Origin: Trypanosoma brucei
Taxonomy: Eukaryota
Direction of reading: 5' to 3'
DNA length: 64,000 nt
NCBI GenBank assembly: GCA_000002445.1
Contig: CM000208.1
Location: forward strand, 2,784,001 to 2,848,000
The translations under genes and the position numbers were made by a program. Of this stretch, positions 18,305 through 43,729 are shown in pieces; within the stretch, counting starts at the first letter, position 1, and every line of letters begins with the position of its first letter. Below the pieces are notes generated by a model, which had not been told where the DNA came from, did not search any database, and saw only the letters and a list, made by a program, of their open reading frames with translations.

Positions 18305-21269
18305 AAAAATAAAATAAAATAGTTGATAGGAGTTGTTGGACAGTCTGAGTAAATGGAGGAAAAGAGAAAAGAGAAAAGGGGAATAGTGGGTGGTGTGTGA
18401 CGAAATGTAGAGATGCATCACCGCAGTGAGAGTGACGTCGAATTGGCGTCCAATTTCCATATGAGGTCACGACGTTCCTCACAAGCATGAATAAAATGAA
18501 ATGAAGAAGGAAATTTTTTTTTTTTTAAAAAAGAAAAATCAAAACCAATATCAATTAATAAATAAATATATTGTGTCCCCTCCATTTCCCTTGGTTGTCT
18601 GCTCTTTGTTGTTTTTTTTCTTCATTTTACTATTCATTTTATTTCTCTCCATCATGTCACATAATCCCTCAAGCTGTGACCCAGAGGAGGGAAATGAATA
18701 TCAAGAGGAAAAGATATTATATTTCAACATGTTTTGATGTAGAGAAGGATTGCACGTGTGCGTACACTTGAAGGCGTTTGAAGGAAAGGGAGAAGAAAGA
18801 GGGAGGGGAGAAGGAATTGTGATGGAAAGAAAGAGAAAAAAAAAAGAAAAAAAGAAAAAAAAGGGGGGAAAAAAGAGTAAAGGAAGAGCAAAACTAAGAC
18901 ATGCAAGAAAAAATAATATTAAATGAAGAAAGAAGAAACGAAAAAAAAAATCATATTGAATAATTGAGAGGGAATGATTGTTGTTGTTGTTGTTTTTTTT
19001 TTTTGCTCCCTCTTGTATTTTGTAAAGAAAGAAAAGAAAAAGATACGCGTACATCCCCTTTTCTCTTCATTTTCTTTTTTTCTTTTTTTTTTCCCCCTTT
19101 TGTCTCCTTTCCTACGTGAAGATTAATGCAAAAAAGATATTTTGTTGTTTTTTTCACCTTTTATCCCTCCTGAACTCTCGTTACTTCTGTTATATTTTTA
19201 CGATTTATTACTTCTCACTAGTGTTTTGGATGTTGGTGTTGGTTGAGTGTTCTTTGTGTTTTGTTTTTGTTTTTTATTATTTTGTTTCGGATTCTTATTT
19301 GTTTGTTTTATTTTCAATTTTTTTTTGTTGTGATTTAGCGTAGTGACGAGTGAATGGGACGAGAAGAAATACGATAGTGAATAGGAGAGTTTTTGTTCGT
19401 TTGTTTTTTGTTTTTGTTTTTGTGAAAAAGAGAAGTAAAGAAGGAGGAACCGAGCGGAGAAAAAATGGTGGGATGAAAGACAAAGGAATAAAAAATAAAA
19501 AAATAGGAGTGATGACGATGACTATGATGATGATGAATGGTAGAGAGAATAAATTTTATTATGTTGAGGAGTGTAGTGAAAAGGTGACAAAGAATTTTTG
19601 AAAAGGAAGAGATTTTGCAGGTGGAAAAAAGGGAGACGTTTAGTTTGAAAATGAAAGTAAATTGGCTGAATGGGGAGAGGGATTTTTTTAAAAAAAAAAT
19701 TAGTAATAATAATAATAAAATCAGCGAATAGACGAGTGGAATGGCAAAATAACAATATCAACAACAACAGATTAAAAGGAAGGAAAAAAAAAAATAGAAC
19801 AGAGTAAAAGTAAAAAATGCCAACAGAGCACTACTACCACCGAAATCAAGAACAAAACAAATCAATACAGAAAAAAAAAATACGGAAGAAAGACGATGAG
19901 AAACGAGGGAATTCAGAAAAAGAAAAAAAAATAAGAGAGATAAGGAAGGGGGAGCGCACGAAGATGTGAATGAGTGACAAAGCAAATATAACCAAAAGCA
20001 GTTATTATTATTATTATTTGTTATTGTTATTGTTGTTATTGTTAGTAGACAAGAAGGATGAGTGATAACGACGTACCCATTTTTGTCTGTGTTTATGTTT
20101 GTGCTTGTGTGTTTTTTTTTCCCTGTGATTTGCGAAGAATATAAATATATAAATATATATAAGTATATATAAATAAATATATATAAATATTTACTTATAC
20201 AATATGTGTTCGTCTGTGATGTTTTTGTGTGTGTGTCTATGAGCTGCGAAAAGAATGATGAATGAAAATTTATTTCTTTTAAACACTATGTTTGAAGGAA
20301 GTAAAGGCTATAGATTGTTTGACATCGGTGGTGTGAAAGGGGACAAAAAAGCAAAGAGAGGTCAGCTTTTTGTGTTTCATTTGTTTTCTTTTTTCTCCTT
20401 TTTCTCCTTTTTTTCTTTTTTTCTTTTTTTTAAAATCACCATTGAGGTGAACAGGTAGAGGTGTTGTAGAGATATGAAAGTGGATATAACGACGCAGAGC
20501 GTGGCGTAGACAAAAATTAAAAAAAATTAAAATTAATGCAGAAGAAAGGAGGAAAAGGTGTGTGTGGCGGATCTGGAAGGGGAAGTGACGAAAAAAAAAA
20601 ATGAAAGTGAGAAGCATTCACTATCTCCATTTTTTCCTCTTTATTTTGTTGTGCCCGGGAATTTCTTTTTTTTTTTTCTTATTGGACCTTTAGGGAGGAC
20701 GTTGATGCGTTCTTCTCCAATTTTTGTCTTACTTCTTTTATTTTATTTTATTTTATTTCTTGTTTGTAGTGCTGTGCTTTTTCTTCGTCTTCTCTTTGTC
20801 TGTTTTTCTTTTTCTTTTTTTGTTTTCATGTGCTGTTTGTGCCCCTTCTTACATTTTTTTTTCTACACGCAAATCCATTTGATGGACTTGCTTCTGTGGA
20901 GCTGGGGAATCTCAGTTTCGAAATATACAATAATAATAATATTATTATTATTACATTAATATAAATATTATTATTAGTGGTAATATTTATTGTAGTGTTC
21001 GTATCTTTCCTTTTCTCCTTCCATTCCATTCCATTCCATTCCCTTTTCTTTTTCTTCTCCCTTCTCCCTTTTCCCTCTCCTTTCTTTCCTTCCTTATGTT
21101 CTTTTTCTTTTTCCTTCTGATTTTCCTCATTTTACATGTTGACCTTCCGTTGCAGAGGAGTATTTATTATGCTTGTGTGTATGTGAGGGGGGAAAAAAAG
21201 AAGTGAAAAGAAATGTGAAGGTGAAGGCCGAGTGGGATGCATCGGGACGATTGTTATATTTGCTTCATT

Positions 21270-21360
21270 ATATATTATATATTATATATATATATATATA
21301 TTATTATTATTATTATTACCATTATTGTTAATATTAATATTATTATTACTACTACTATTA
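21270..21360. repeat. compound AT-rich microsatellite ((TATAT)n, (TA)n, (ATT)n, (TAT)n)
   Basis: tatatattatatattatatatatatatatatattattattattattacc... read directly. Confidence 0.85.
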
Positions 21361-23400
21361 CTATTTGCCCGCTCCTTCTCTTCTCTTCTCTTCTTTAATT
21401 AATTTACATTTACTCTTCTCCATTCCCCACCCTAACTTTTTTTGGGCGTCGTTGCGTCTCCTCTGTGCCCCCGATGCCTAAGGTTGCTTTTTGTATTTAT
21501 TTCGCTGTTGTGTTTTCTTGTTTGTTCTTGCGCACGTGTTGGAATGTACATGATTTTCTAAATTAAGAGAGAGAGAAAGAGGAAAAACGAAATATTCGCA
21601 AATGATTATATATTAATATATATATATATATATATAAATATGTGCATGTATATGTTTTTTTTTTGGTTCTATCTACGTGTGTTCGCGTCTGTGTTTGTGT
21701 TTGTCTGTTTGTGTTTCTTTCTCTACGAGGAAAGGCAGTAACTGAAAGGAATGCGTGTAGGATACCTGGGGAAATGGAGGAGAGGGATTTTGTGTTTGTT
21801 CGCCTGTGTGGAGGAATGAATAAAAAATTCTTTTTTTTTTTAAAAAAAAGAAAGGCGACGCAAAAAGAAGAGGGACGGTCGTGGGAGAGGAAAAGAGTTA
21901 TATGAAGTGGGTCATTTAAAAGGAGCAAAAAGAAGAAAAAAAATTAAGGAAAACAAATCAAAACGAATTAAAAAAACAACAACAACAACAGGGTAAATGG
22001 ATGAAAGGGGAGGGGGGAAAAAAAAGGGGGAGAGGAGTAAAGGAGCGAAACGGGAGAAGGGGATCGGTAGAAGAATGACAGGAATATATATTTTATATAT
22101 TATTTAGCTGTGGAGAAATTGAAGTTTAGGGGTGATGAAATGAAAAATGGGAATTAGTGCGTATATATATATATGTGTGTGTGTGTGTGCGCGCGTATGT
22201 ATGGCTATTGTGCAGTACATTTACGAGTTATTTAAACATATGTATCCATCAGGAATAATTGAACATGAAGACAAACAACCAAACAAGCAAATGAAACGGA
22301 ATAGATAAATGAGAAGCAGAAGGTGAACATGATGGAGTTTTGAGTGTGTGTGTGTGTGAGTGTGTGCATTTGGTGGTGTAAGAGTAGGAGGAGGGAAGTG
22401 AGGCGTTAGTATAATGAGGAAAAAGATGAGAAAGCATTTTCTTCTTTTCTTCTTCTGAAAAAAATAAAAAGGAGAAGAGGGGGAATGTCAACTGGGAAGG
22501 GAAGACAAGGCAAAGTGCGAATCCTTCCCCGCATGCCTGTTTTATTCTTTCCTTTTCTTTTGTTTTTTAGCAATTGCTGCTGCTGAGGGCCCACTGTTTT
22601 TGTTTATTCCTTTTGTTATACGCCCTTCATCTTCTCTTTTGTTTCTCTTTCCCTCCTTCTTCACCTTCACCCTTGTTTTTTTTCTTTTTCTATTTCATTC
22701 ACTTTCCTTCTTCTATCAGTCACCATATATACACGTGTGAGTTTGTTAGCGGTACCGTCTTGTTACTACTTTTATTTGGCTGCTTTTTTTGTTTTCACTT
22801 TGTTTTTCTGTGGCATTGAACACCATTGTCAAAACCTGCCTCCAGTGATGTTCATTCATTCATTCATTCAACTATTTTATTTGATTTTATTTTTGCGCAT
22901 GTGTACTCCTGCCATCTTTCCATCCATTCCAGTCATCCTGCGTAGTTGAACTTTCCCCTCGTTCCTTTTTTTTTTCTATTTTTTTGTAAAATATTTACAT
23001 TAGTTATAAAAGTGTTGATATGTCCATTGTAGCGCACTCGTAACACCTTCCGTGCATTCAGCATTTGCCCATACATTTTAATTTGCTTATCAATATATGA
23101 ATATATAAATATATAAATATATATATATTTATGTGCATTGATAATTGCACGCGTTGGGAGAAGGAAATGCGGGGCACGTGGTGGCAACGGCAAATGATTT
23201 CGCAAGGATTGACAGCAGATATTTGTGTAATGTCCCCCCCCCAAAAAAAAATAATAGTAATAAATAAATAACAAAAAACAGAAAGAAAAAAAGAACAACA
23301 ACAAAAAGAAACAAAACCGGGTGTAGAAAAATGTACACACACAAAAAAAAAAGAAAAGAGATTATGAATTAAAGGCGTGCAGGAAATTCTTTGTAAAGAA

Positions 23401-23475
23401 CTTTTAGTTTCACTCTGCTCTCTTTTATCTCCTTACTGCTCTGAACACCATTATTTTTTATTTTTATTACTTCGT
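23401..23475 (+). promoter_or_regulatory. polypyrimidine tract plus AG upstream of small ORF 23612
   Basis: cttttagtttcactctgctctcttttatctccttactgctctgaacaccattattttttatttttattacttcgttttcttgcatctacataag. Confidence 0.4.
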
Positions 23476-37075: not shown

Positions 37076-37284
37076 TGGGTCAGTTGCACATACCTGTAGG
37101 CGGTGCCCTTGCGCCATTATATTCTTTTCCACCCAATCTCATAAACTTTTTACACAGTAGGAAACCTAAGAAACCCGCATATTCGGGTTGAACACCGGCT
37201 TTTGTTTGCCGTGATTCCTGACTCGTGCGGGACGTATTGTTGGGGAGCTTTAGTGGAAAATCGAGAGCATTAGAGTTTCTCTTA

Positions 37285-40200
37285 ATGTACACTACGACAG
37301 CCAAACAGCCCACAGTGGTGGGGGAGCGCGCTTTTTCCATGTCGGAGAAAGTTCTCACGTTCCCTTCCGCCGTAACTTCAATGACAGTTACCCCGGATCA
37401 CGTGTGGCTGGTCATGTCTGACGGAGGTGTGCAGATACGTGATGTTTCCACCACGGAGTTGGTTCACTGCTTCGCTAGCGCATCAAGACCGAGGCGTGTG
37501 GTACGTATATGGTCGATTCTCGCTGTTCCAGATCCTGCTGTGGGGTTACAGGTATGGATGGGGCTGTCCAATGGTGCCGTCGAGGTCTATGACGCACAAA
37601 CTTTCGGCGTATTGCGCCAGCAGACGAAGCACGCGGGTGGGGTATATTGTCTTGCCGAGTTTGGCGGGTACGTGTACTCAGGGAGCAGTGACTTCAAGAT
37701 TGGGCAGTGGTACGCCGCGGACGCACGCCTCGTGCGGATGCTGCACGGTCATAGCAATTATGTGCGCTGTCTTTATGCCGAGGGCAACGCCGTTGTGAGT
37801 GGGTCCGATGATTGTACGGTACGTGTATGGGATGTAGGAAGCGGTGACGCCCAGTTAACGGGACGCTTTCACGACCGCTCGGCCGTGTCTGCTCTGTGTC
37901 GTGTAGGCATTACGATGTGGTCTGGTGATGATAGTGGCCGTGTTGCGGTGTGGAGGCTCGACACATGTGAGGCTTTACACATTCTTCAGGCACATAGCGG
38001 TCGCGTTTCGTCACTGAAGAAGGTTGGATCACGTGTGTACTCTGGTGGCGCAGATGGCGTGATTGCTGTATTTGATGCGGAGGAGGGTCGTTTGCTGAGC
38101 CACGTGAATAATTACCACGGTGTTCGTGTCTCTTCTCTTGTTGTAACGTCGGAGCTGCGACGGTTTTGTATCTGGTCCTCTAGTGCGGACAAGATGATTC
38201 AGTGTTGGCACCAGGATGAGTATACTGTTATGATAGGTGATCAGGAAAGGTTTTCAGAACGTTTTTGGTACGAAACAGGTTCGACACCGTACCGTGAGTT
38301 CCGGGACAGTGTTCTGAAGCACATCGGTAACCTGCGAGAGACACTCAAGATAAGAACGTCCGACAATCCACGTTTAGTAGATATAGTGGGTTTATCTAAC
38401 TCCGCATCGACTGTGGAGGGTTTTCGGAAACGGGAAGCCATACTCAATAAGGAGCTTTCGTCTCTGGAGGGTCGCCAAGCATCACTGGAGAGTCAACTGG
38501 AGCAGTCGAAGGGAGTACTGGAGAATATAGAAAAGGAAACGAGCTTGGTGCTTGGCATTCTTCGTGCAGCTCAAGCTGAGCTTCGATCGCTGGACCCCGT
38601 TTTGCATGGCTCTCTTCTCATGTCGGCAGGAGGCGATGCGAATGGACCGCTTGCAAATATTGTTAGCACGCTATCGGGTCAACCGGCAACAATGACTAAC
38701 GTGCCGAACCCACCTGGCAACTTGGCTGTTCCGACTTCTACCGCTGCAACGACGTCTGCTTGGCCAGCAATTCCCTCAGCAGCTGCGGTGGGTAGTGGAG
38801 CTCAATACGCTGCGTATCAGCCCACTGCAATTCAGGGGCATCCCTTCTATGTAGGCACTCCAGCAACTTATACCCAACCTGCCTCGGTCTCGCACCCAGT
38901 CGCTGGCGTCAGTGGGGCGACAGTGTCCAATTTGCAGAGCCCCGTTCCCCCAGTTCAGGTGTGTGGAACGACTCCTACTGGGGTGTCAACGGCACAAATT
39001 CCTGGTGGCCAGGGTGTGGCCTTTACGGCATTACAACCGGCCGGCACCATGGCTGTGGGAGGACCAACAGGTTCAACAAATGCTGTTCAACAAGTTCCCA
39101 CAGCTGCTACCACACCCAGCGGCACGACTGCCGCAGCAATGGTTGGCGCACTACCGCCTGGTCAGAGCACAGCCACCACATCAGCCCAACCACTCGGAAC
39201 CGCGGCTGCGGGAGCAATGGCTGGCGCACTACCGCCTGGTCAGAGCATAGCCACCACATCAGCCCAACCACTCGGAACCGCGGCTGCGGGAGCAATGGCT
39301 GGCGCACTACCGCCTGGTCAGAGCATAGCCACCACATCAGCCCAACCACTCGGAACCGCGGCTGCAGGAGCAATGGCTGGCGCACTACCGCCTGGTCAGA
39401 GCATAGCCACCACATCAGCCCAACCACTCGGAACCGCGGCTGCGGGAACGATGGCTGGCGCACTACCGCCTGGTCAGAGCATAGCCACCACATCAGCCCA
39501 ACCACTCGGAACCGCGGCTGCGGGAACGATGGCTGGCGCACTACCGCCTGGTCAGAGCATAGCCACCACATCAGCCCAACCACTCGGAACCGCGGCTGCA
39601 GGAGCAATGGCTGGCGCACTACCGCCTGGTCAGAGCATAGCCACCACATCAGCCCAACCACCTAGCACCTTGGGTGTAGGAGGGTCAACAGGGGCTCCAA
39701 CATTTGGACAAAACTTTGCTGTGTCGCTGCAACCTTCGACTGCCACCACCTCCGTTGGGCCGGCTGGGTTAACGTCTTCTGCGGCAAACATGGCAGTTTC
39801 TTCTCAGCCGTTGGGCGCCTCAACTGTCGTTGATGCTTCGGGGCCACTACACAGCGGCCAAAGCCTGACTGGGTCGGCGCATCCGCTCTCTACTCAGGCT
39901 TCCGGAAAACTGATGGGAACGGCATCGGCTGGTGAAAGTGTAACTACGCCCTTTCAACCATTGGGTGCCACTGCAAATGGTAGCTCTTTGGTGTTCACAA
40001 CCGCTGGTCAGAGTTTAACAGCTATACCACAATCTCTTGGGGTCGCATCTACCGGGCAGTCAACGGCACAAATTCCTGGTGGCCAGGGTGTGGCCTTTAC
40101 GGCGTTACAACCGGCTGGCACCATGGCTGTGGGAGGACCAACAGGTTCAACAAATGCTGTTCAACAAGTTCCCACAGCTGCTACCACACCCAGCGGCACG

Positions 40201-40602
40201 ACTGCCGCAGCAATGGCTGGCGCACTACCGCCTGGTCAGAGCATAGCCACCACATCAGCCCAACCACTCGGAACCGCGGCTGCAGGAGGGCCAGCAGGGA
40301 AACCCCCTGTTGAGCAAGATTTTTTATCCACGAAGCGCGTCGTTCCACCCGTTTCTCGTTGTGGAACCGCGCCCCCGTCCAAACACGTCCATTTCGAGCA
40401 GGTAGCTGAAGCTACCACCAGTGGCGGTGTGGTCTACAGGGGCGTAGAATGGACCAATAAAAACGTCGGCAATTATATCCAGCGCCGTTACTACGGGGCG
40501 GAACCAAGTCTTCGGACCCCGGCTCTTGAAAAGCGCAGGAGATTGCAAGGTCGTATGCCGGACGTTAAGTTAGAGCCGTTCAAAAGGAAAGACGAGGGAT
40601 GA
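37285..40602 (+). CDS. WD40-repeat protein with coiled-coil and long A/T/G/P/Q-rich repetitive C-terminal region
   Basis: The track start 37225 is a GTG. The first ATG is 37285, with a second at 37339. The N-terminal 330 aa hold classic WD repeats (GHSNYVRCLYAEGNAVVSGSDDCTVRVWDV). A coiled-coil lies at about residues 400-450. The remainder is low complexity, including a 78-nt tandem array and a duplicated 230-nt block. Short conserved C-terminal tail (VVYRGVEWTNKNVGNYIQRRYYG). Confidence 0.8.
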   Translation: MYTTTAKQPTVVGERAFSMSEKVLTFPSAVTSMTVTPDHVWLVMSDGGVQIRDVSTTELVHCFASASRPRRVVRIWSILAVPDPAVGLQVWMGLSNGAVEVYDAQTFGVLRQQTKHAGGVYCLAEFGGYVYSGSSDFKIGQWYAADARLVRMLHGHSNYVRCLYAEGNAVVSGSDDCTVRVWDVGSGDAQLTGRFHDRSAVSALCRVGITMWSGDDSGRVAVWRLDTCEALHILQAHSGRVSSLKKVGSRVYSGGADGVIAVFDAEEGRLLSHVNNYHGVRVSSLVVTSELRRFCIWSSSADKMIQCWHQDEYTVMIGDQERFSERFWYETGSTPYREFRDSVLKHIGNLRETLKIRTSDNPRLVDIVGLSNSASTVEGFRKREAILNKELSSLEGRQASLESQLEQSKGVLENIEKETSLVLGILRAAQAELRSLDPVLHGSLLMSAGGDANGPLANIVSTLSGQPATMTNVPNPPGNLAVPTSTAATTSAWPAIPSAAAVGSGAQYAAYQPTAIQGHPFYVGTPATYTQPASVSHPVAGVSGATVSNLQSPVPPVQVCGTTPTGVSTAQIPGGQGVAFTALQPAGTMAVGGPTGSTNAVQQVPTAATTPSGTTAAAMVGALPPGQSTATTSAQPLGTAAAGAMAGALPPGQSIATTSAQPLGTAAAGAMAGALPPGQSIATTSAQPLGTAAAGAMAGALPPGQSIATTSAQPLGTAAAGTMAGALPPGQSIATTSAQPLGTAAAGTMAGALPPGQSIATTSAQPLGTAAAGAMAGALPPGQSIATTSAQPPSTLGVGGSTGAPTFGQNFAVSLQPSTATTSVGPAGLTSSAANMAVSSQPLGASTVVDASGPLHSGQSLTGSAHPLSTQASGKLMGTASAGESVTTPFQPLGATANGSSLVFTTAGQSLTAIPQSLGVASTGQSTAQIPGGQGVAFTALQPAGTMAVGGPTGSTNAVQQVPTAATTPSGTTAAAMAGALPPGQSIATTSAQPLGTAAAGGPAGKPPVEQDFLSTKRVVPPVSRCGTAPPSKHVHFEQVAEATTSGGVVYRGVEWTNKNVGNYIQRRYYGAEPSLRTPALEKRRRLQGRMPDVKLEPFKRKDEG
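38986..39215 (+). repeat. copy 1 of a roughly 230-nt intragenic duplication (copy 2 at 40060-40285, about 97% identical)
   Basis: tcaacggcacaaattcctggtggccagggtgtggcctttacggc...cagcccaaccactcggaaccgcggctgc occurs twice. It encodes STAQIPGGQGVAFTALQPAGTMAVGGPTGSTNAVQQVPTAATTPSGTTAAAM(V/A)GALPPGQS... Confidence 0.85.
39125..39660 (+). repeat. 78-nt tandem repeat, about 6.9 copies, encoding AMAGALPPGQSIATTSAQPLGTAAAG
   Basis: Near-identical 26-aa units with A/T variation at unit position 1 and one S-T/I change, read directly from sequence and translation. The minus-strand and alternate-frame ORFs here (39107..39661 and 38961..39665) are artefacts of the repeat. Confidence 0.9.
40060..40285 (+). 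repeat. copy 2 of the intragenic duplication
   Basis: See 38986-39215. Confidence 0.85.
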
Positions 40603-40860
40603 TAGAGAGTTACAAAGCCGTTAAAAGCGTTTCCGGTAAATGGCGTTAAAAAGTATATAGATATTTTTCCATAGAAATTGTCACGGCTTTTTGTGGTGTT
40701 GTTACTCAGGCTGTTTTTTCCGAGGAAACTTCGGGTATCAGGGTGTTGTGTCTTGATCCACTGACTGCCTTTTCTTTATTTACCATCTGACTAGGAACAG
40801 TAATACTGTAGCCTCTACAGTATTGAGAGCGCGGCGCTGACTAACTAGGTGGAATAGACC

Positions 40861-42461
40861 ATGAGAAGCGCGCAGTTCCCACTTGCAGCAATACCGCCCC
40901 CACCACCATCAGCAGCAGTCCCACAACCACCAATGGCAGCAGTCCCGCAACCACCAATGGCAGCAGTCCCGCAACCTCCAATGGCAACAGTCCCGCAACC
41001 ACCAATGGCAGCAGTCCCACAACCACCATCAGCAGCAGTCCCACAACCACCAATGGCAGCAGTCCCGCAACCACCAATGGCAGCAGTCCCACAACCACCA
41101 TCAGCAGCAGTCCCGCAACCACCAATGGCAGCAGTCCCGCAACCACCAATGGCAGCAGTCCCGCAACCTCCAATGGCAGCAGTCCCGCAACCTCCAATGG
41201 CAACAGTCCCGCAACCACCAAGGCAGCAGTCCCACAACCGCCAATGGCAGCAGTCCCACAACCACCATTGGCAGCAGTCCCACAACCACCAATGGCAGCA
41301 GTCCCACAACCTCCAATGGCAGCAGTCCCACAACCACCAATGGCAGCAGTCCCACAACCACCAATGGCAGCAGTCCCACAACCACCAATGGCAGCAGTCC
41401 CACAACCACCATCAGCAGCAGTCCCACAACCACCATCAGCAGCAGTCCCGCAACCACCAATGGCAGCAGTCCCGCAACCACCAATGGCAGCAGTCCCACA
41501 ACCACCATCAGCAGCAGTCCCACAACCACCAATGGCAGCAGTCCCACAACCACCAATGGCAGCAGTCCCACAACCTCCAATGGCAGCAGTCCCACAACCA
41601 CCAATGGCAGCAGTCCCACAACCTCCAATGGCAGCAGTCCCACAACCACCAATGGCAGCAGTCCCACAACCACCAATGGCAGCAGTCCCGCAACCTCCAA
41701 TGGCAGCAGTCCCGCAACCTCCAATGGCAGCAGTCCCGCAACCTCCAATGGCAGCAGTCCCACAACCACCAAAGGCAGCAGTCCCACAACCACCAATGGC
41801 AGCAGTCCCGCAACCACCAATGGCAGCAGCGCGACAGTCACCGCTGGTGGTGGCCCCGGCGTGCCCACCAACTTCCGATGGGCTAAATGCTACTGATGGC
41901 ACGGGTAGTGGATTATCAAAAAGTCTTGTAATACCATCTGCTGCCGGGGGGTTGGCAGTATCATTGTCCGAGACTCAGCAAACTCGTGGATACGGAAGAG
42001 AAACGGAGGAGATTTTTTCAGGTAACCACCCCACTAGCAACCCCAATTTACTGTCTCATTCACCTTTGCTTGCAGGTCTTCCTTCCTGGAACATCCCAAG
42101 TGCTTCAAGTTCTACTTGGGCGGGGTCGACAGTAACTCAAGTCTTTGTGCCCCAGCTGGATGCTGTCCCAGCGCGCAGCGTCATCTTACCGACTGCGGTG
42201 TGGTTTGACGACAGACTAGAGCGTGTAGTTGTTCCTCGAGTGAATGCCACTTCTTCGGTGCCAAAGGGATTACAAGAGGAAGGTTCTAGGCAGCGGTTAA
42301 AGCCGTCATTCAAACGAGTGAAGGACAAATACCTCTGGCGGCTGCCACCGTCGAAAGAGGGTATAGCAAGTGAGTTGTGGCGTGGAGTTTACTGGAAGCA
42401 TGTTGATGTGCATCGTTACGTTTCCAGGCGGTATTTTGGGGGACCGCCACCGGTTGAATAA
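40861..42461 (+). CDS. repetitive proline/alanine-rich protein, (PPMAAVPQ)n about 39 copies plus a unique 200-aa C-terminal domain. The reading frame is broken by a 1-nt deletion near nt 41220
   Basis: ATG 40861 (MRSAQFPLAAIPPPPPSAAVPQ) follows a polyY/AG context and reads (PPMAAVPQ)n until about 41220, where one unit is 23 nt (ccaccaa-ggcagcag, lacking the T of ATG) and shifts the frame. The ORF 41244..42461 continues the same repeat in the next frame into a unique C-terminus ending VYWKHVDVHRYVSRRYFGGPP. It is either a sequencing or assembly error in the array or a genuine pseudogenising frameshift. Confidence 0.5.
40896..41832 (+). repeat. 24-nt tandem repeat array (about 39 units; consensus ccaccaatggcagcagtccc[a/g]caa)
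   Basis: Read directly. Variants include cct/cca, atg to tca (Ser), atg to aag (Lys), and one 23-nt unit. All six frames are open across it, which produces the many overlapping artefactual ORFs on both strands. Confidence 0.95.
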
Positions 42462-42796: not shown

Positions 42797-43729
42797 ATGC
42801 TGCGCCACACATCACGGAACAATGCTTTGCACGCATTTGTTCGCTCACCGCATTACCGAACTATTCCGAGCGCTGGACCAAATGGGATTGTTGTCAACCG
42901 AGATATGCTCGTTCACCAGTTCAGAGACTTCTACAAAACACTTCAACATTGCTCTCTTGTCGACAAAGTCCATTTGATGTCCGAGAGACCCTCGGTAGAA
43001 GCACTACGGGTAGCGGACCAAATGGTTTCCATCGGTGCCACATTTTTAGAGATGCCACTGACAGGTATGGAACATCGCGCGACAGAATTTATGGAGTCAA
43101 TGCGGTATGTTCGTGGTGCTGGTGGACCCTCTACTCTTGCCTCGTACTTGCAAGATACGGAGAATTGCCGGTGTAATAGCGGCGATGTGGTGTGTTTACC
43201 GAATGGCATAGCAGTTGGCCACGGTCCGAGAACAAACGCAGTGGCTCATACTACGCTGAAACAATTGTTCGAAGTGAAAGATGACCAATTTTCTTTTGAT
43301 GTCTTCACTTTAGAACAGGAGGGTGATGCGCCACCGCTTGGGGACTATTTCGGTTTTGCTGGGAGCAACGTATTACTCACTTGGAAAGATGAGCACGGTT
43401 TACTTGCTGTAGATCAATACCAACAGAAACAGCCCCACACGGAGATGAATGTAGTTTATCTTGAACCTGGTTGCCATTTTTTATCTTTCTATGGTGTCGA
43501 CCACACGATAGATGTTTTAGTTCAGAAGGGCTACGAACGCTCAATGGACAGCATTGCTGCTGCGGGTTTGAATCCTATTCCTGTTCAGTGGTCGGAGATG
43601 GACAAACTTGGGATATCGATGAGGGCCGCAGTTCTTCCACTTAAATTCTTCAAGGCGAATGTTGGTGGCATGTTGTCGAGGAACAAGAGTCGTGGAGCCC
43701 GATGGCAGACGCATCAACTGCAGAAATAA
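42797..43729 (+). CDS. amidinotransferase-superfamily protein, DDAH-like (possible pseudoenzyme)
   Basis: NSGDVVCLPNGIAVGHGPRTNAVAHTTLKQLF resembles the DDAH core DGGDV..G..fvGlSkRTN as I remember it. GCHFLSF resembles the His-containing GLHLKSF. The C-terminal region (EMDKLGISMRAAVLPL) aligns to the Cys-nucleophile region (ELEKVDGLLTCCSVLI) but has no Cys. Confidence 0.5.
   Translation: MLRHTSRNNALHAFVRSPHYRTIPSAGPNGIVVNRDMLVHQFRDFYKTLQHCSLVDKVHLMSERPSVEALRVADQMVSIGATFLEMPLTGMEHRATEFMESMRYVRGAGGPSTLASYLQDTENCRCNSGDVVCLPNGIAVGHGPRTNAVAHTTLKQLFEVKDDQFSFDVFTLEQEGDAPPLGDYFGFAGSNVLLTWKDEHGLLAVDQYQQKQPHTEMNVVYLEPGCHFLSFYGVDHTIDVLVQKGYERSMDSIAAAGLNPIPVQWSEMDKLGISMRAAVLPLKFFKANVGGMLSRNKSRGARWQTHQLQK

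What the first reader, a model, noticed from the sequence alone, without database searches (positions are those of the whole stretch)
38986..40285. 78-nt tandem array flanked by a 97%-identical 230-nt intragenic duplication inside the WD40 gene
Within one CDS, a 26-aa unit (AMAGALPPGQSIATTSAQPLGTAAAG) is repeated about 7 times (39125-39660). The block that leads into the array (38986-39215) reappears almost identically 1.07 kb downstream (40060-40285), including the first repeat unit. Such a structure can arise from unequal recombination between array copies, or it can be an assembly mis-join. Copy number is probably polymorphic. The near-identity of the two 230-nt blocks (3 substitutions) suggests a recent event or gene conversion.
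Basis: seen in the sequence. Interest (0 to 1): 0.5.

Follow-up and report, generated by a model that had tools for sequence, protein, structure and literature searches.

The report
Variable in-frame repeat array in trypanosome gene
The repeats are real: a seven-copy, 26-amino-acid coding minisatellite plus an older three-unit duplication in the disordered middle of a Trypanosoma brucei WD40 protein, which is an ordinary kind of feature and not an assembly error.

Summary
The window is T. brucei TREU927 chromosome 10. The CDS at 37285-40602 encodes XP_823391.1 (1105 aa). It holds a 78-nt x 6.8 array (39125-39661). It also holds two in-frame 230-nt blocks (38985-39214 and 40059-40288) that are 97.8% identical, with 5 mismatches rather than 3.

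Both blocks and the 402-nt spacer between them also occur in T. b. gambiense DAL972 and T. equiperdum IVM-t1. Those assemblies carry the same two synonymous block-specific differences. The duplication therefore predates these lineages and is not a TREU927 mis-join.

Only the array varies: 7, 5 and 3 units. The flanks are essentially identical.

The region is an old, in-phase array of about 17 degenerate 25-26-aa units with a Q-P-L-G core. It lies in a roughly 600-aa stretch predicted to be disordered. Other Trypanosoma species carry their own homogenised arrays at the same position.

Best reading: an ordinary coding minisatellite that turns over by unequal recombination or slippage.

Side finding: in the other two assemblies this locus holds two tandem WD40 paralogues that share a 601-nt identical tract. 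The TREU927 gene is a hybrid of them and lacks 1.83 kb. That is either a real recombination deletion or a collapsed reference.

The parts
37285..40602 (+). CDS of the WD40 / coiled-coil / repeat protein. It equals XP_823391.1 / EAN78563.1 / UniProt Q389F7 (1105 aa) of T. b. brucei TREU927 chromosome 10. It is probably Tb927.10.11850, but that number is inferred from neighbours and not verified.
   Evidence: ORF list. Exact-sequence look-up. The neighbour at 42797-43729 is RESC5 (Pfam PF26170 in L001). TZP50 = Tb927.10.11840 according to PMC6529878.
37354..38211 (+). WD40 beta-propeller (aa 24-309).
   Evidence: Pfam WD40 and beta-propeller families. AlphaFold2 pLDDT 80-94, all-beta. The nearest solved structures are FBXW7-type and designed propellers.
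37512..38112 (+). 601-nt tract that is 100% identical between the two tandem paralogues (A and B) of T. b. gambiense and T. equiperdum. In TREU927 it is the junction of the hybrid gene: A-type 5' end before it, B-type body after it.
   Evidence: Alignment of the window with gene 1 and gene 2 of L001 and L002. Megablast co-linearity.
38287..38589 (+). Long helices, probably a coiled coil (aa 335-435).
   Evidence: AlphaFold2 secondary structure H335-360, H363-375, H377-435.
38608..40458 (+). Region predicted to be disordered and rich in A/G/T/P/S/Q (aa 442-1058). It contains all the repeats.
   Evidence: pLDDT about 30 with no secondary structure. Composition A 21%, G 14%, T 14%, P 11%, S 10%, Q 7%.
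38985..39214 (+). Block 1. It consists of two degenerate units (STAQIPGGQGVAFTALQPAGTMAVGG and PTGSTNAVQQVPTAATTPSGTTAAAM), the first canonical unit, and 12 nt of the next.
   Evidence: The unit HMM hits the first degenerate unit at i-E 2e-5.
39125..39661 (+). 78-nt (26-codon) tandem array of 6.8 copies. Four variant types differ at GCG/GCA, GCA/ACG, ATA/ACA and GCT/GTT.
   Evidence: TRF. Unit table.
39662..40058 (+). Spacer made of about five degenerate units of 25-26 aa, in phase with the array (SSQPLGAS, SAHPLSTQ, PFQPLGAT, IPQSLGVA). It begins with the TLGVGG element, which is conserved as far as Leptomonas and Leishmania.
   Evidence: Motif positions spaced 25-26 aa apart. Unit-HMM matches end at 81, 106, 131, 157, 182 and 208 of the post-array piece. 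Consensus 'TLGVGG' and invariant G797.
40059..40288 (+). Block 2, the in-frame copy of block 1. It has one canonical unit and then runs into the unique tail (GGPAGKPPVEQDF...).
   Evidence: It is identical in L001 and L002.
40438..40560 (+). Conserved C-terminal motif (GVEWTNKNVGNYIQRRYYGAEPSLRTPALEKRRR...). Its conservation shows that the reading frame is kept through the array.
   Evidence: Invariant W1056, V1061, Y1064, R1068, L1076 among 13 kinetoplastid orthologues. Only 12 hits among 1.84 billion representative proteins; the matches examined are kinetoplastid WD40 orthologues or Trypanosoma-like fragments of them, and the weakest (P0133, E 2.6e-5) looks unrelated. No match to any solved structure.

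Best explanation
This is a genuine protein-coding minisatellite inside an old, degenerate repeat region.

The WD40 / coiled-coil protein carries a disordered stretch of about 600 aa. Its core (aa ~575-1005) is an ancient in-phase array of about 17 units of 25-26 aa, built around G-Q-S...Q-P-L-G.

First, in the Trypanozoon stem lineage, three consecutive units (two degenerate and one canonical, 230 nt) came to exist twice in frame, about 1 kb apart. This happened by unequal exchange between misaligned units, or by a conversion tract of the same length. Second, the canonical unit next to block 1 was amplified, and it keeps changing in number and variant content by unequal sister-chromatid or allelic recombination or by replication slippage. 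Counts are 7 in TREU927, 5 in DAL972 and 3 in IVM-t1.

Shown here: the anatomy, the intact frame, the presence of the structure in three assemblies, the restriction of variation to the array, and lineage-specific arrays at the same position in other Trypanosoma.

Inferred: the molecular mechanism, and the function. I propose that the array sets the length and the number of Q-P-L-G motifs of a flexible linker between the propeller / coiled coil and the conserved C-terminal motif.
For: - Array and blocks verified.
- One intact 1105-aa ORF identical to XP_823391.1. The C-terminal motif downstream of the array is conserved across kinetoplastids, so the array is read in frame.
- Blocks, spacer (402 nt) and block 2-to-tail junction (228 nt) are present in DAL972 and IVM-t1. 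The same two block-specific synonymous differences are present there too.
- The 945 nt after the array are identical in all three assemblies, and the 998 nt before it differ at 1-2 sites. Array copy number and variants differ.
- The IVM-t1 difference is an in-frame 303-nt deletion with an ACCACA microhomology at the junction.
- Degenerate units are in phase every 25-26 aa.
- Orthologues carry their own arrays at the same position with a shared Q-P-L-G core: T. melophagium 63 nt x 13.7, T. cruzi 21-aa units, T. grayi 40 aa, T. vivax 19-20 aa.
- AlphaFold2 gives pLDDT of about 30 and no secondary structure for aa 442-1058.
Against: - No reads were available, so the exact copy number in any strain is unverified.
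- IVM-t1 was assembled from 300-bp MiSeq reads plus about 2.4x PacBio (PMC6395869) and could under-count units.
- DAL972 has a 2-nt deletion in its last unit that breaks the frame. That is either a sequencing error or a real pseudogene.
- The same TREU927 gene lacks 1.83 kb upstream relative to the other two assemblies. This locus is therefore not free of assembly or clone problems.
- Whether the block pair arose by duplication or by conversion of pre-existing homologous units cannot be decided. The flanks show only 14-22 nt of weak similarity (z 0.4 upstream, z 2.7 downstream).
- The proposed linker or motif-valency function has no experimental support. No paper in the library mentions the gene.
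Confidence: 0.8

Rival explanations
1. The second block is an assembly mis-join or chimeric clone in the TREU927 reference, and the true gene has one block followed by the array and the tail.
For: Repeats of this kind are classic sources of mis-assembly. The same gene model in TREU927 lacks 1.83 kb that two other assemblies have.
Against: The same arrangement occurs in DAL972 and IVM-t1, whose contigs were assembled de novo. Spacer and block 2 lengths are identical there, and the same two diagnostic differences between the blocks are present. The spacer is joined on its left to a repeat unit and on its right to a block start, so the junctions themselves require two blocks. Each junction is short enough to lie within one Sanger read. 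The frame is intact across all junctions.
Confidence: 0.04
2. The two blocks are not a new duplication. They are two old, already homologous stretches of the degenerate array, and a single 230-nt gene-conversion tract made them alike.
For: The whole region is an in-phase array of homologous 25-26-aa units, so any in-phase pair is a conversion substrate. The identity boundaries are sharp, with short zones of weak similarity just outside (10/14 nt on the left; 22 nt on the right, z 2.7). Gene conversion is clearly active at this locus, as shown by the 601-nt identical tract between the paralogues.
Against: The pattern does not distinguish conversion from unequal crossing-over. There is no outgroup with an unconverted state: the T. 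congolense protein is truncated and carries different repeats. The two fixed differences show no conversion since the Trypanozoon lineages split.
Confidence: 0.3
3. The copy-number differences (7, 5, 3) are artefacts of three different assemblies and not real polymorphism.
For: IVM-t1 rests mostly on 300-bp reads. DAL972 has a frame-breaking 2-nt deletion in the array. Arrays of 400-550 nt are near the limit of single Sanger reads.
Against: The variant content also differs in ways that simple collapse does not produce. ACA units occupy positions 1-3 in DAL972 but only position 1 in TREU927. ACG units occur in TREU927 and IVM-t1 but not in DAL972. The IVM-t1 deletion has a defined, in-frame microhomology junction.
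Confidence: 0.25
4. The array region is not translated because the gene is a pseudogene or mis-annotated, so the repeat is just a non-coding minisatellite.
For: In DAL972 the gene is annotated as two CDSs (739 aa and 270 aa) because of a frameshift in the array.
Against: The unit is 26 codons. The ORF is intact in TREU927 and IVM-t1. The IVM-t1 deletion is 101 codons. A conserved C-terminal motif lies in the same frame downstream in 13 kinetoplastid orthologues.
Confidence: 0.03

Closest known systems
Coding minisatellites / tandem-repeat proteins of trypanosomatids and other microbes (for example T. brucei MARP and GM6/FAZ repeats, T. cruzi SAPA, Leishmania K39, yeast FLO/ALS adhesins). Named from my own knowledge; the abstract of PMC13309793 (listed) says repeat proteins are widespread in protozoan parasites.
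   Same: Head-to-tail units whose length is a multiple of three, near-identical at the DNA level. The array sits inside an ORF. Copy number differs between strains while flanks stay constant. Different units are homogenised in different lineages (concerted evolution).
   Different: The array is small (7 units). It lies in the disordered linker of an intracellular-looking WD40 / coiled-coil protein. There is no evidence of surface exposure or antigenicity. It is embedded in an older degenerate array with a three-unit higher-order duplication.
Higher-order (multi-unit) intragenic duplications in repeat-bearing genes, produced by unequal crossing-over (for example involucrin and mucin-type genes). 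Named from my own knowledge.
   Same: A block of several consecutive, non-identical units is copied in phase and in frame.
   Different: There are only two copies of the block. One copy has a locally amplified unit next to it. The origin (duplication or conversion) is unresolved.
Lepore-type hybrid genes formed by non-allelic homologous recombination between tandem paralogues (delta-beta globin Lepore, red/green opsin hybrids, CYP21A2/CYP21A1P). Named from my own knowledge. This applies to the side finding, not to the array.
   Same: The TREU927 gene has the 5' end of the upstream paralogue and the 3' body of the downstream paralogue. They are joined within a 601-nt tract that is identical in both, and the 1.83-kb interval is lost.
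   Different: It is not shown to be biological. Collapse of a perfect 601-nt repeat in a Sanger-era assembly would look the same.

Membership tests
Coding minisatellite (in-frame tandem-repeat region of a protein) | Head-to-tail copies of a unit whose length is a multiple of three | tested here: met
   78 nt = 26 codons, 6.8 copies, no indels.
Coding minisatellite (in-frame tandem-repeat region of a protein) | The array lies in an intact ORF, and conserved sequence downstream stays in the same frame | tested here: met
   1105-aa ORF. The C-terminal motif is conserved in 13 orthologues.
Coding minisatellite (in-frame tandem-repeat region of a protein) | Units are homogenised at the DNA level, so synonymous sites are also identical | tested here: met
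   Units differ at 1-4 of 78 positions (units 2-7 at no more than 3). The variants include both synonymous (GCG/GCA) and non-synonymous changes.
Coding minisatellite (in-frame tandem-repeat region of a protein) | Copy number varies between strains while the flanks are constant | tested here: met
   7, 5 and 3 units in three assemblies. The flanks are identical over 945 nt and differ at 1-2 sites over 998 nt. Caveat: this compares assemblies, not reads.
Assembly mis-join / chimeric repeat artefact | The arrangement is found in only one assembly | tested here: not met
   Both blocks, the spacer and the tail junction are present in DAL972 and IVM-t1.
Assembly mis-join / chimeric repeat artefact | Junctions break the reading frame or create novel unsupported sequence | tested here: not met
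   The offset is 1074 nt = 358 codons and the frame is continuous.
Assembly mis-join / chimeric repeat artefact | Read depth or spanning reads are inconsistent with the assembly | not testable with these tools
   No read data are accessible.
Ongoing gene conversion between the two blocks | Sharp boundaries of near-identity within otherwise dissimilar sequence | tested here: met
   97.8% identity inside. Flank alignment z = 0.4 upstream and z = 2.7 downstream against shuffles.
Ongoing gene conversion between the two blocks | Block-specific differences are erased or re-sorted independently in separate lineages | tested here: not met
   The same two differences (39030 A/G, 39042 C/T) separate block 1 from block 2 in all three assemblies.
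Lepore-type NAHR hybrid gene (side finding, TREU927 gene model) | Relatives have two tandem paralogues that share an identical tract | tested here: met
   Gene 1 (453 aa) and gene 2 (1003 aa) share a 601-nt tract at 100% identity, with flanks at about 40%, in L001 and L002.
Lepore-type NAHR hybrid gene (side finding, TREU927 gene model) | The hybrid combines the 5' end of the upstream gene with the 3' end of the downstream gene, and the interval is absent | tested here: met
   The 1.2-kb unique part of the interval is found nowhere in the 64-kb window.
Lepore-type NAHR hybrid gene (side finding, TREU927 gene model) | The hybrid is confirmed in the organism by reads or PCR and is not an assembly collapse | not testable with these tools
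   No reads. The homology search for the missing part returned nothing, not even the known proteins, so it is uninformative.
Trypanosomatid tandem-repeat antigens | Repeats are recognised by host antibodies; the protein is abundant or exposed | not testable with these tools
   No localisation or serology was found in the searched literature and supplements.

The most novel reading that the evidence does not exclude
The locus may be a small model of concerted evolution with functional meaning. Two tandem WD40 paralogues keep the same roughly 600-nt stretch of propeller-coding sequence identical by gene conversion, with the same boundaries in T. brucei and in the distant T. melophagium. That tract has mediated a real Lepore-type fusion in TREU927, and independently in T. 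congolense IL3000, so that the reference strain carries one hybrid gene where other strains carry two. The Q-P-L-G array of paralogue B would then be an ancient multivalent short-motif array whose valency is tuned by copy-number change.
Probability: 0.25. Interest if true: 0.45.

Novelty: new member of a known kind. Interest (0 to 1): 0.25.

Why it matters
For the finding itself, the importance is small. It adds one more variable in-frame minisatellite to a parasite genome that has many. It could serve as a strain-typing marker, and it is a caution for short-read assemblies and for proteomics or tagging of this protein.

The more useful result is practical. The TREU927 reference gene model is a hybrid of two paralogues that are separate genes in DAL972 and IVM-t1. 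Work based on the reference, such as RNAi, tagging, orthology tables and pangenome presence/absence calls, may therefore merge two genes or miss one. The conserved identical tract between the paralogues also shows how sharply bounded gene conversion can be in trypanosome core chromosomes.

Tried and rejected
- Searched for residual similarity in the flanks of the two blocks, to decide between an old large duplication and a new small one. Nothing significant was found.
- Searched for further T. brucei-group sequences with the repeat region as query, hoping for independent junctions. Only DAL972 and distant orthologues came back.
- Searched for the paralogue-A-specific 3' part, to see whether TREU927 holds it elsewhere. 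The search returned nothing at all, not even the known 453-aa proteins, so it is uninformative.
- An exact look-up of the 1105-aa product with the look-up of encoding contigs failed. The cluster look-up then identified it.
- Literature and supplement searches returned nothing on the WD40 gene. This covered the inferred gene IDs, the UniProt accession, guessed Leishmania orthologue IDs, the TrypTag supplements and the structure-annotation supplements. The gene number Tb927.10.11850 therefore remains an inference from neighbours.
- The tBLASTn similarity between the downstream 24-nt array and the proline-rich tail of T. melophagium paralogue A could mean that a gene half has been relocated. I rejected this as a conclusion because the sequences are low-complexity and T. 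melophagium has its own separate gene at that position.
- The long ORFs in other frames and on the minus strand across both arrays are by-products of the repeats.
- No Pfam family at E <= 0.01, tRNA gene or Rfam match bears on the repeat region.
Full report
**1. What is in the sequence**

Tandem Repeats Finder reports a 78-nt unit in 6.8 copies at 39128-39661, with 97% matches, no indels and score 998. The repeat finder reports a 240-nt direct repeat, 38975-39214 versus 40049-40288, at 97%.

A base-by-base comparison places the near-identical block at 38985-39214 versus 40059-40288. This is 230 nt at an offset of 1074 nt (358 codons). There are five mismatches:
- 39030 A/G, synonymous
- 39042 C/T, synonymous
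- 39210 G/A, synonymous
- 39143, V/A
- 39170, T/I

Identity is lost immediately outside both ends. The only correction is five substitutions rather than three.

**2. Identity of the gene**

All long ORFs in the window are on the + strand. The ORF at 37225-40602 (annotated ATG at 37285) is, by exact-sequence look-up, XP_823391.1 / EAN78563.1 / Q389F7. This is a 1105-aa 'hypothetical protein, conserved' of T. brucei brucei TREU927, on a 4.05-Mb contig (chromosome 10).

The gene at 42797-43729 is RESC5 (Pfam PF26170 in the syntenic locus). RESC5 is MRB11870 = Tb927.10.11870; that equivalence is my own knowledge. TZP50 is Tb927.10.11840 according to PMC6529878. The WD40 gene is therefore probably Tb927.10.11850, but I could not verify the number.

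The architecture of the protein is as follows:
- Pfam finds WD40 / beta-propeller families only.
- AlphaFold2 with a 13-sequence alignment gives a confident propeller (aa 24-309, pLDDT 80-94) and long helices (aa 335-435).
- It gives no structure for aa 442-1058 (pLDDT about 30) and two short helices in the C-terminal motif.
- The repeats lie wholly in the unstructured part, which is rich in A, G, T, P, S and Q.

**3. The repeats are the young part of an old array**

The motif G-Q-S...Q-P-L-G recurs every 25-26 residues from about aa 575 to aa 1005.

I built an HMM from the canonical 26-aa unit. It finds weak but strictly in-phase matches through the 'spacer', ending at positions 81, 106, 131, 157, 182 and 208 of the post-array piece. 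The region is therefore about 17 units long. Seven units are nearly identical. The '230-nt block' is three consecutive units: two degenerate, one canonical, plus 12 nt of the next.

Orthologues carry different homogenised arrays at the same position but share the Q-P-L-G core:
- T. melophagium: 63 nt x 13.7
- T. cruzi: 21-aa units
- Two unnamed Trypanosoma-like protein fragments (P0128, P0129): 21-aa units
- T. grayi: 40-aa units
- T. vivax: 19-20-aa units

The array as such is therefore old, and it evolves in concert within each lineage. The conserved C-terminal motif GVEWTNKNVGNYIQRRYYGAEPSLR lies in frame behind it in 13 kinetoplastid orthologues. That motif occurs almost nowhere else: 12 hits among 1.84 billion representative proteins.

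**4. Is it an assembly artefact?**

I fetched the syntenic loci of T. equiperdum IVM-t1 (L001) and T. b. gambiense DAL972 (L002).
- Both contain block 1, the array, a 402-nt spacer, block 2 and the tail.
- Spacer and block 2 lengths are identical to TREU927.
- The two synonymous differences that distinguish block 1 from block 2 are the same in all three.
- The 945 nt from spacer to stop codon are identical in all three. The 998 nt before the array differ at one or two sites.

The junctions add a further argument. The spacer is joined to a repeat unit on its left and to a block start on its right, so two blocks are required. A TREU927-specific mis-join is therefore very unlikely.

The blocks differ by 1.4-2.2%, while the gene differs by about 0.1% between these strains. 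The duplication or conversion is thus clearly older than the split of these lineages.

**5. What varies**

Only the array varies.
- TREU927 has 7 units.
- DAL972 has 5, and its last unit carries a 2-nt deletion. That deletion is why the gene is annotated there as 739 aa plus 270 aa.
- IVM-t1 has 3, together with an in-frame 303-nt deletion whose junction lies in an ACCACA microhomology.

Variant content also differs. ACA units occupy positions 1-3 in DAL972 but only position 1 in TREU927. ACG units occur in TREU927 and IVM-t1 only.

This is the behaviour of a minisatellite that turns over by unequal recombination or slippage. One caveat applies: IVM-t1 rests on 300-bp reads plus about 2.4x PacBio (PMC6395869). 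None of the copy numbers could be checked against reads.

**6. Duplication or conversion?**

The flanks of the two blocks show no significant DNA similarity. Alignment against shuffles gives z = 0.4 upstream and z = 2.7 for a 22-nt match downstream. All units are old homologues in phase, so unequal crossing-over and a 230-nt conversion tract predict the same picture. I leave this open and favour duplication about 2:1. The shared fixed differences argue against ongoing conversion of the pre-array part.

**7. Side finding: the TREU927 gene is a hybrid**

In L001 and L002 the locus has two tandem WD40 genes. Gene 1 encodes 453 aa (paralogue A) and gene 2 encodes 1003 aa (paralogue B).
- The two genes share a 601-nt tract at 100% identity, with flanks at about 40%.
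- The window has A's 5' end, then the tract (37512-38112), then B's body.
- The 1.83-kb interval is missing. Its unique 1.2 kb is found nowhere in the window.

This is either a Lepore-type deletion or a collapsed perfect repeat in the reference. The annotated T. congolense IL3000 protein has the same A-head / B-body layout.

In T. melophagium the order is TZP50-like, A, B, X, RESC5. There, A and B share a 623-nt tract at the same position. Its first 527 nt are identical, and blastn finds no other similarity between the two genes. The tract is only 71% identical to the T. brucei tract. Gene conversion with conserved boundaries therefore operates in both lineages.

**8. Verdict**

The feature is real, coding and variable. 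It is an ordinary kind of thing, a new member of a known kind. The mechanism of origin and the proposed role as a flexible, motif-bearing linker are inferences. The hybrid reference gene is the more noteworthy point and needs read-level confirmation.

Noticed in passing
window 37285-38300 (junction tract 37512-38112); L001 8169-13012; L002 8168-13157: The TREU927 WD40 gene is a hybrid of two tandem paralogues that are separate genes in T. b. gambiense DAL972 and T. equiperdum IVM-t1 (453 aa and 1003 aa). 1.83 kb is missing, and the junction lies in a 601-nt tract identical in both paralogues. This is either a real NAHR deletion or a collapse in the reference assembly.
   Followed up: partly
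L003 5655-10541 (T. melophagium) versus window 37512-38112: T. melophagium paralogues A and B share a 623-nt tract at the same position (first 527 nt identical), and blastn finds no other similarity between them. The tract is only 71% identical to the T. brucei tract. This indicates concerted evolution by gene conversion with conserved, sharp boundaries in two distant Trypanosoma lineages.
   Followed up: partly
P0003 (T. congolense IL3000, TCIL3000_10_10020): The annotated T. congolense protein has the same layout as the TREU927 hybrid: paralogue-A N-terminus and paralogue-B body. This is either recurrent recombination or the same kind of assembly collapse.
   Followed up: no
window 40861-42461 (array 40912-41829): The next gene (XP_823392.1, 405 aa) starts inside a 24-nt x 38 array encoding AAVPQPPM. 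One unit is 23 nt long (spacing 167 = 7 x 24 - 1 between 41089 and 41256). The upstream ATG at 40861 is therefore out of frame with the rest. DAL972 has no frameshift among the unit spacings sampled, and IVM-t1 has a +1 indel. The true start and length of this protein are uncertain.
   Followed up: partly
window 40483-40566 and 42375-42458: The downstream array protein ends with WRGVYWKHVDVHRYVSRRYFGG, which resembles the C-terminal motif of the WD40 protein (VYRGVEWTNKNVGNYIQRRYYG). Pairwise BLASTP gives E = 2e-6. Two neighbouring genes thus each combine a repeat array with a similar C-terminal motif.
   Followed up: partly
L002 12150-12225: The last array unit in DAL972 has a 2-nt deletion (GCGATGTGGCGC instead of GCAATGGCTGGCGC). 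This splits the gene into CBH16330 (739 aa) and CBH16331 (270 aa). It is either a sequencing error or a pseudogene in T. b. gambiense.
   Followed up: partly
L001 11820-11840: IVM-t1 lacks the end of block 1 and the first unit, through an in-frame 303-nt deletion. Its junction lies in a 6-nt ACCACA microhomology.
   Followed up: partly
window 39664-39690 (aa 794-802, STLGVGGST): Directly after the array lies a short element, TLGVGG, that is conserved as far as Leptomonas and Leishmania orthologues (invariant G797). The 'spacer' therefore holds at least one conserved motif.
   Followed up: no
window 18305-25114: A 6.8-kb AT-rich stretch (GC 0.32-0.44) has no ORF of 200 aa or more. It follows a gene that looks like a Pumilio-type protein from its translation alone (no domain scan was run on it). 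It contains ATTATT-type simple repeats and has no tRNA or Rfam match. It may be a very long UTR or intergenic region.
   Followed up: partly
window 38961-39665 (+), 39107-39661 (-), 40841-41902 (-): Long ORFs in other frames and on the opposite strand across both arrays are by-products of the repeats and are not genes.
   Followed up: yes
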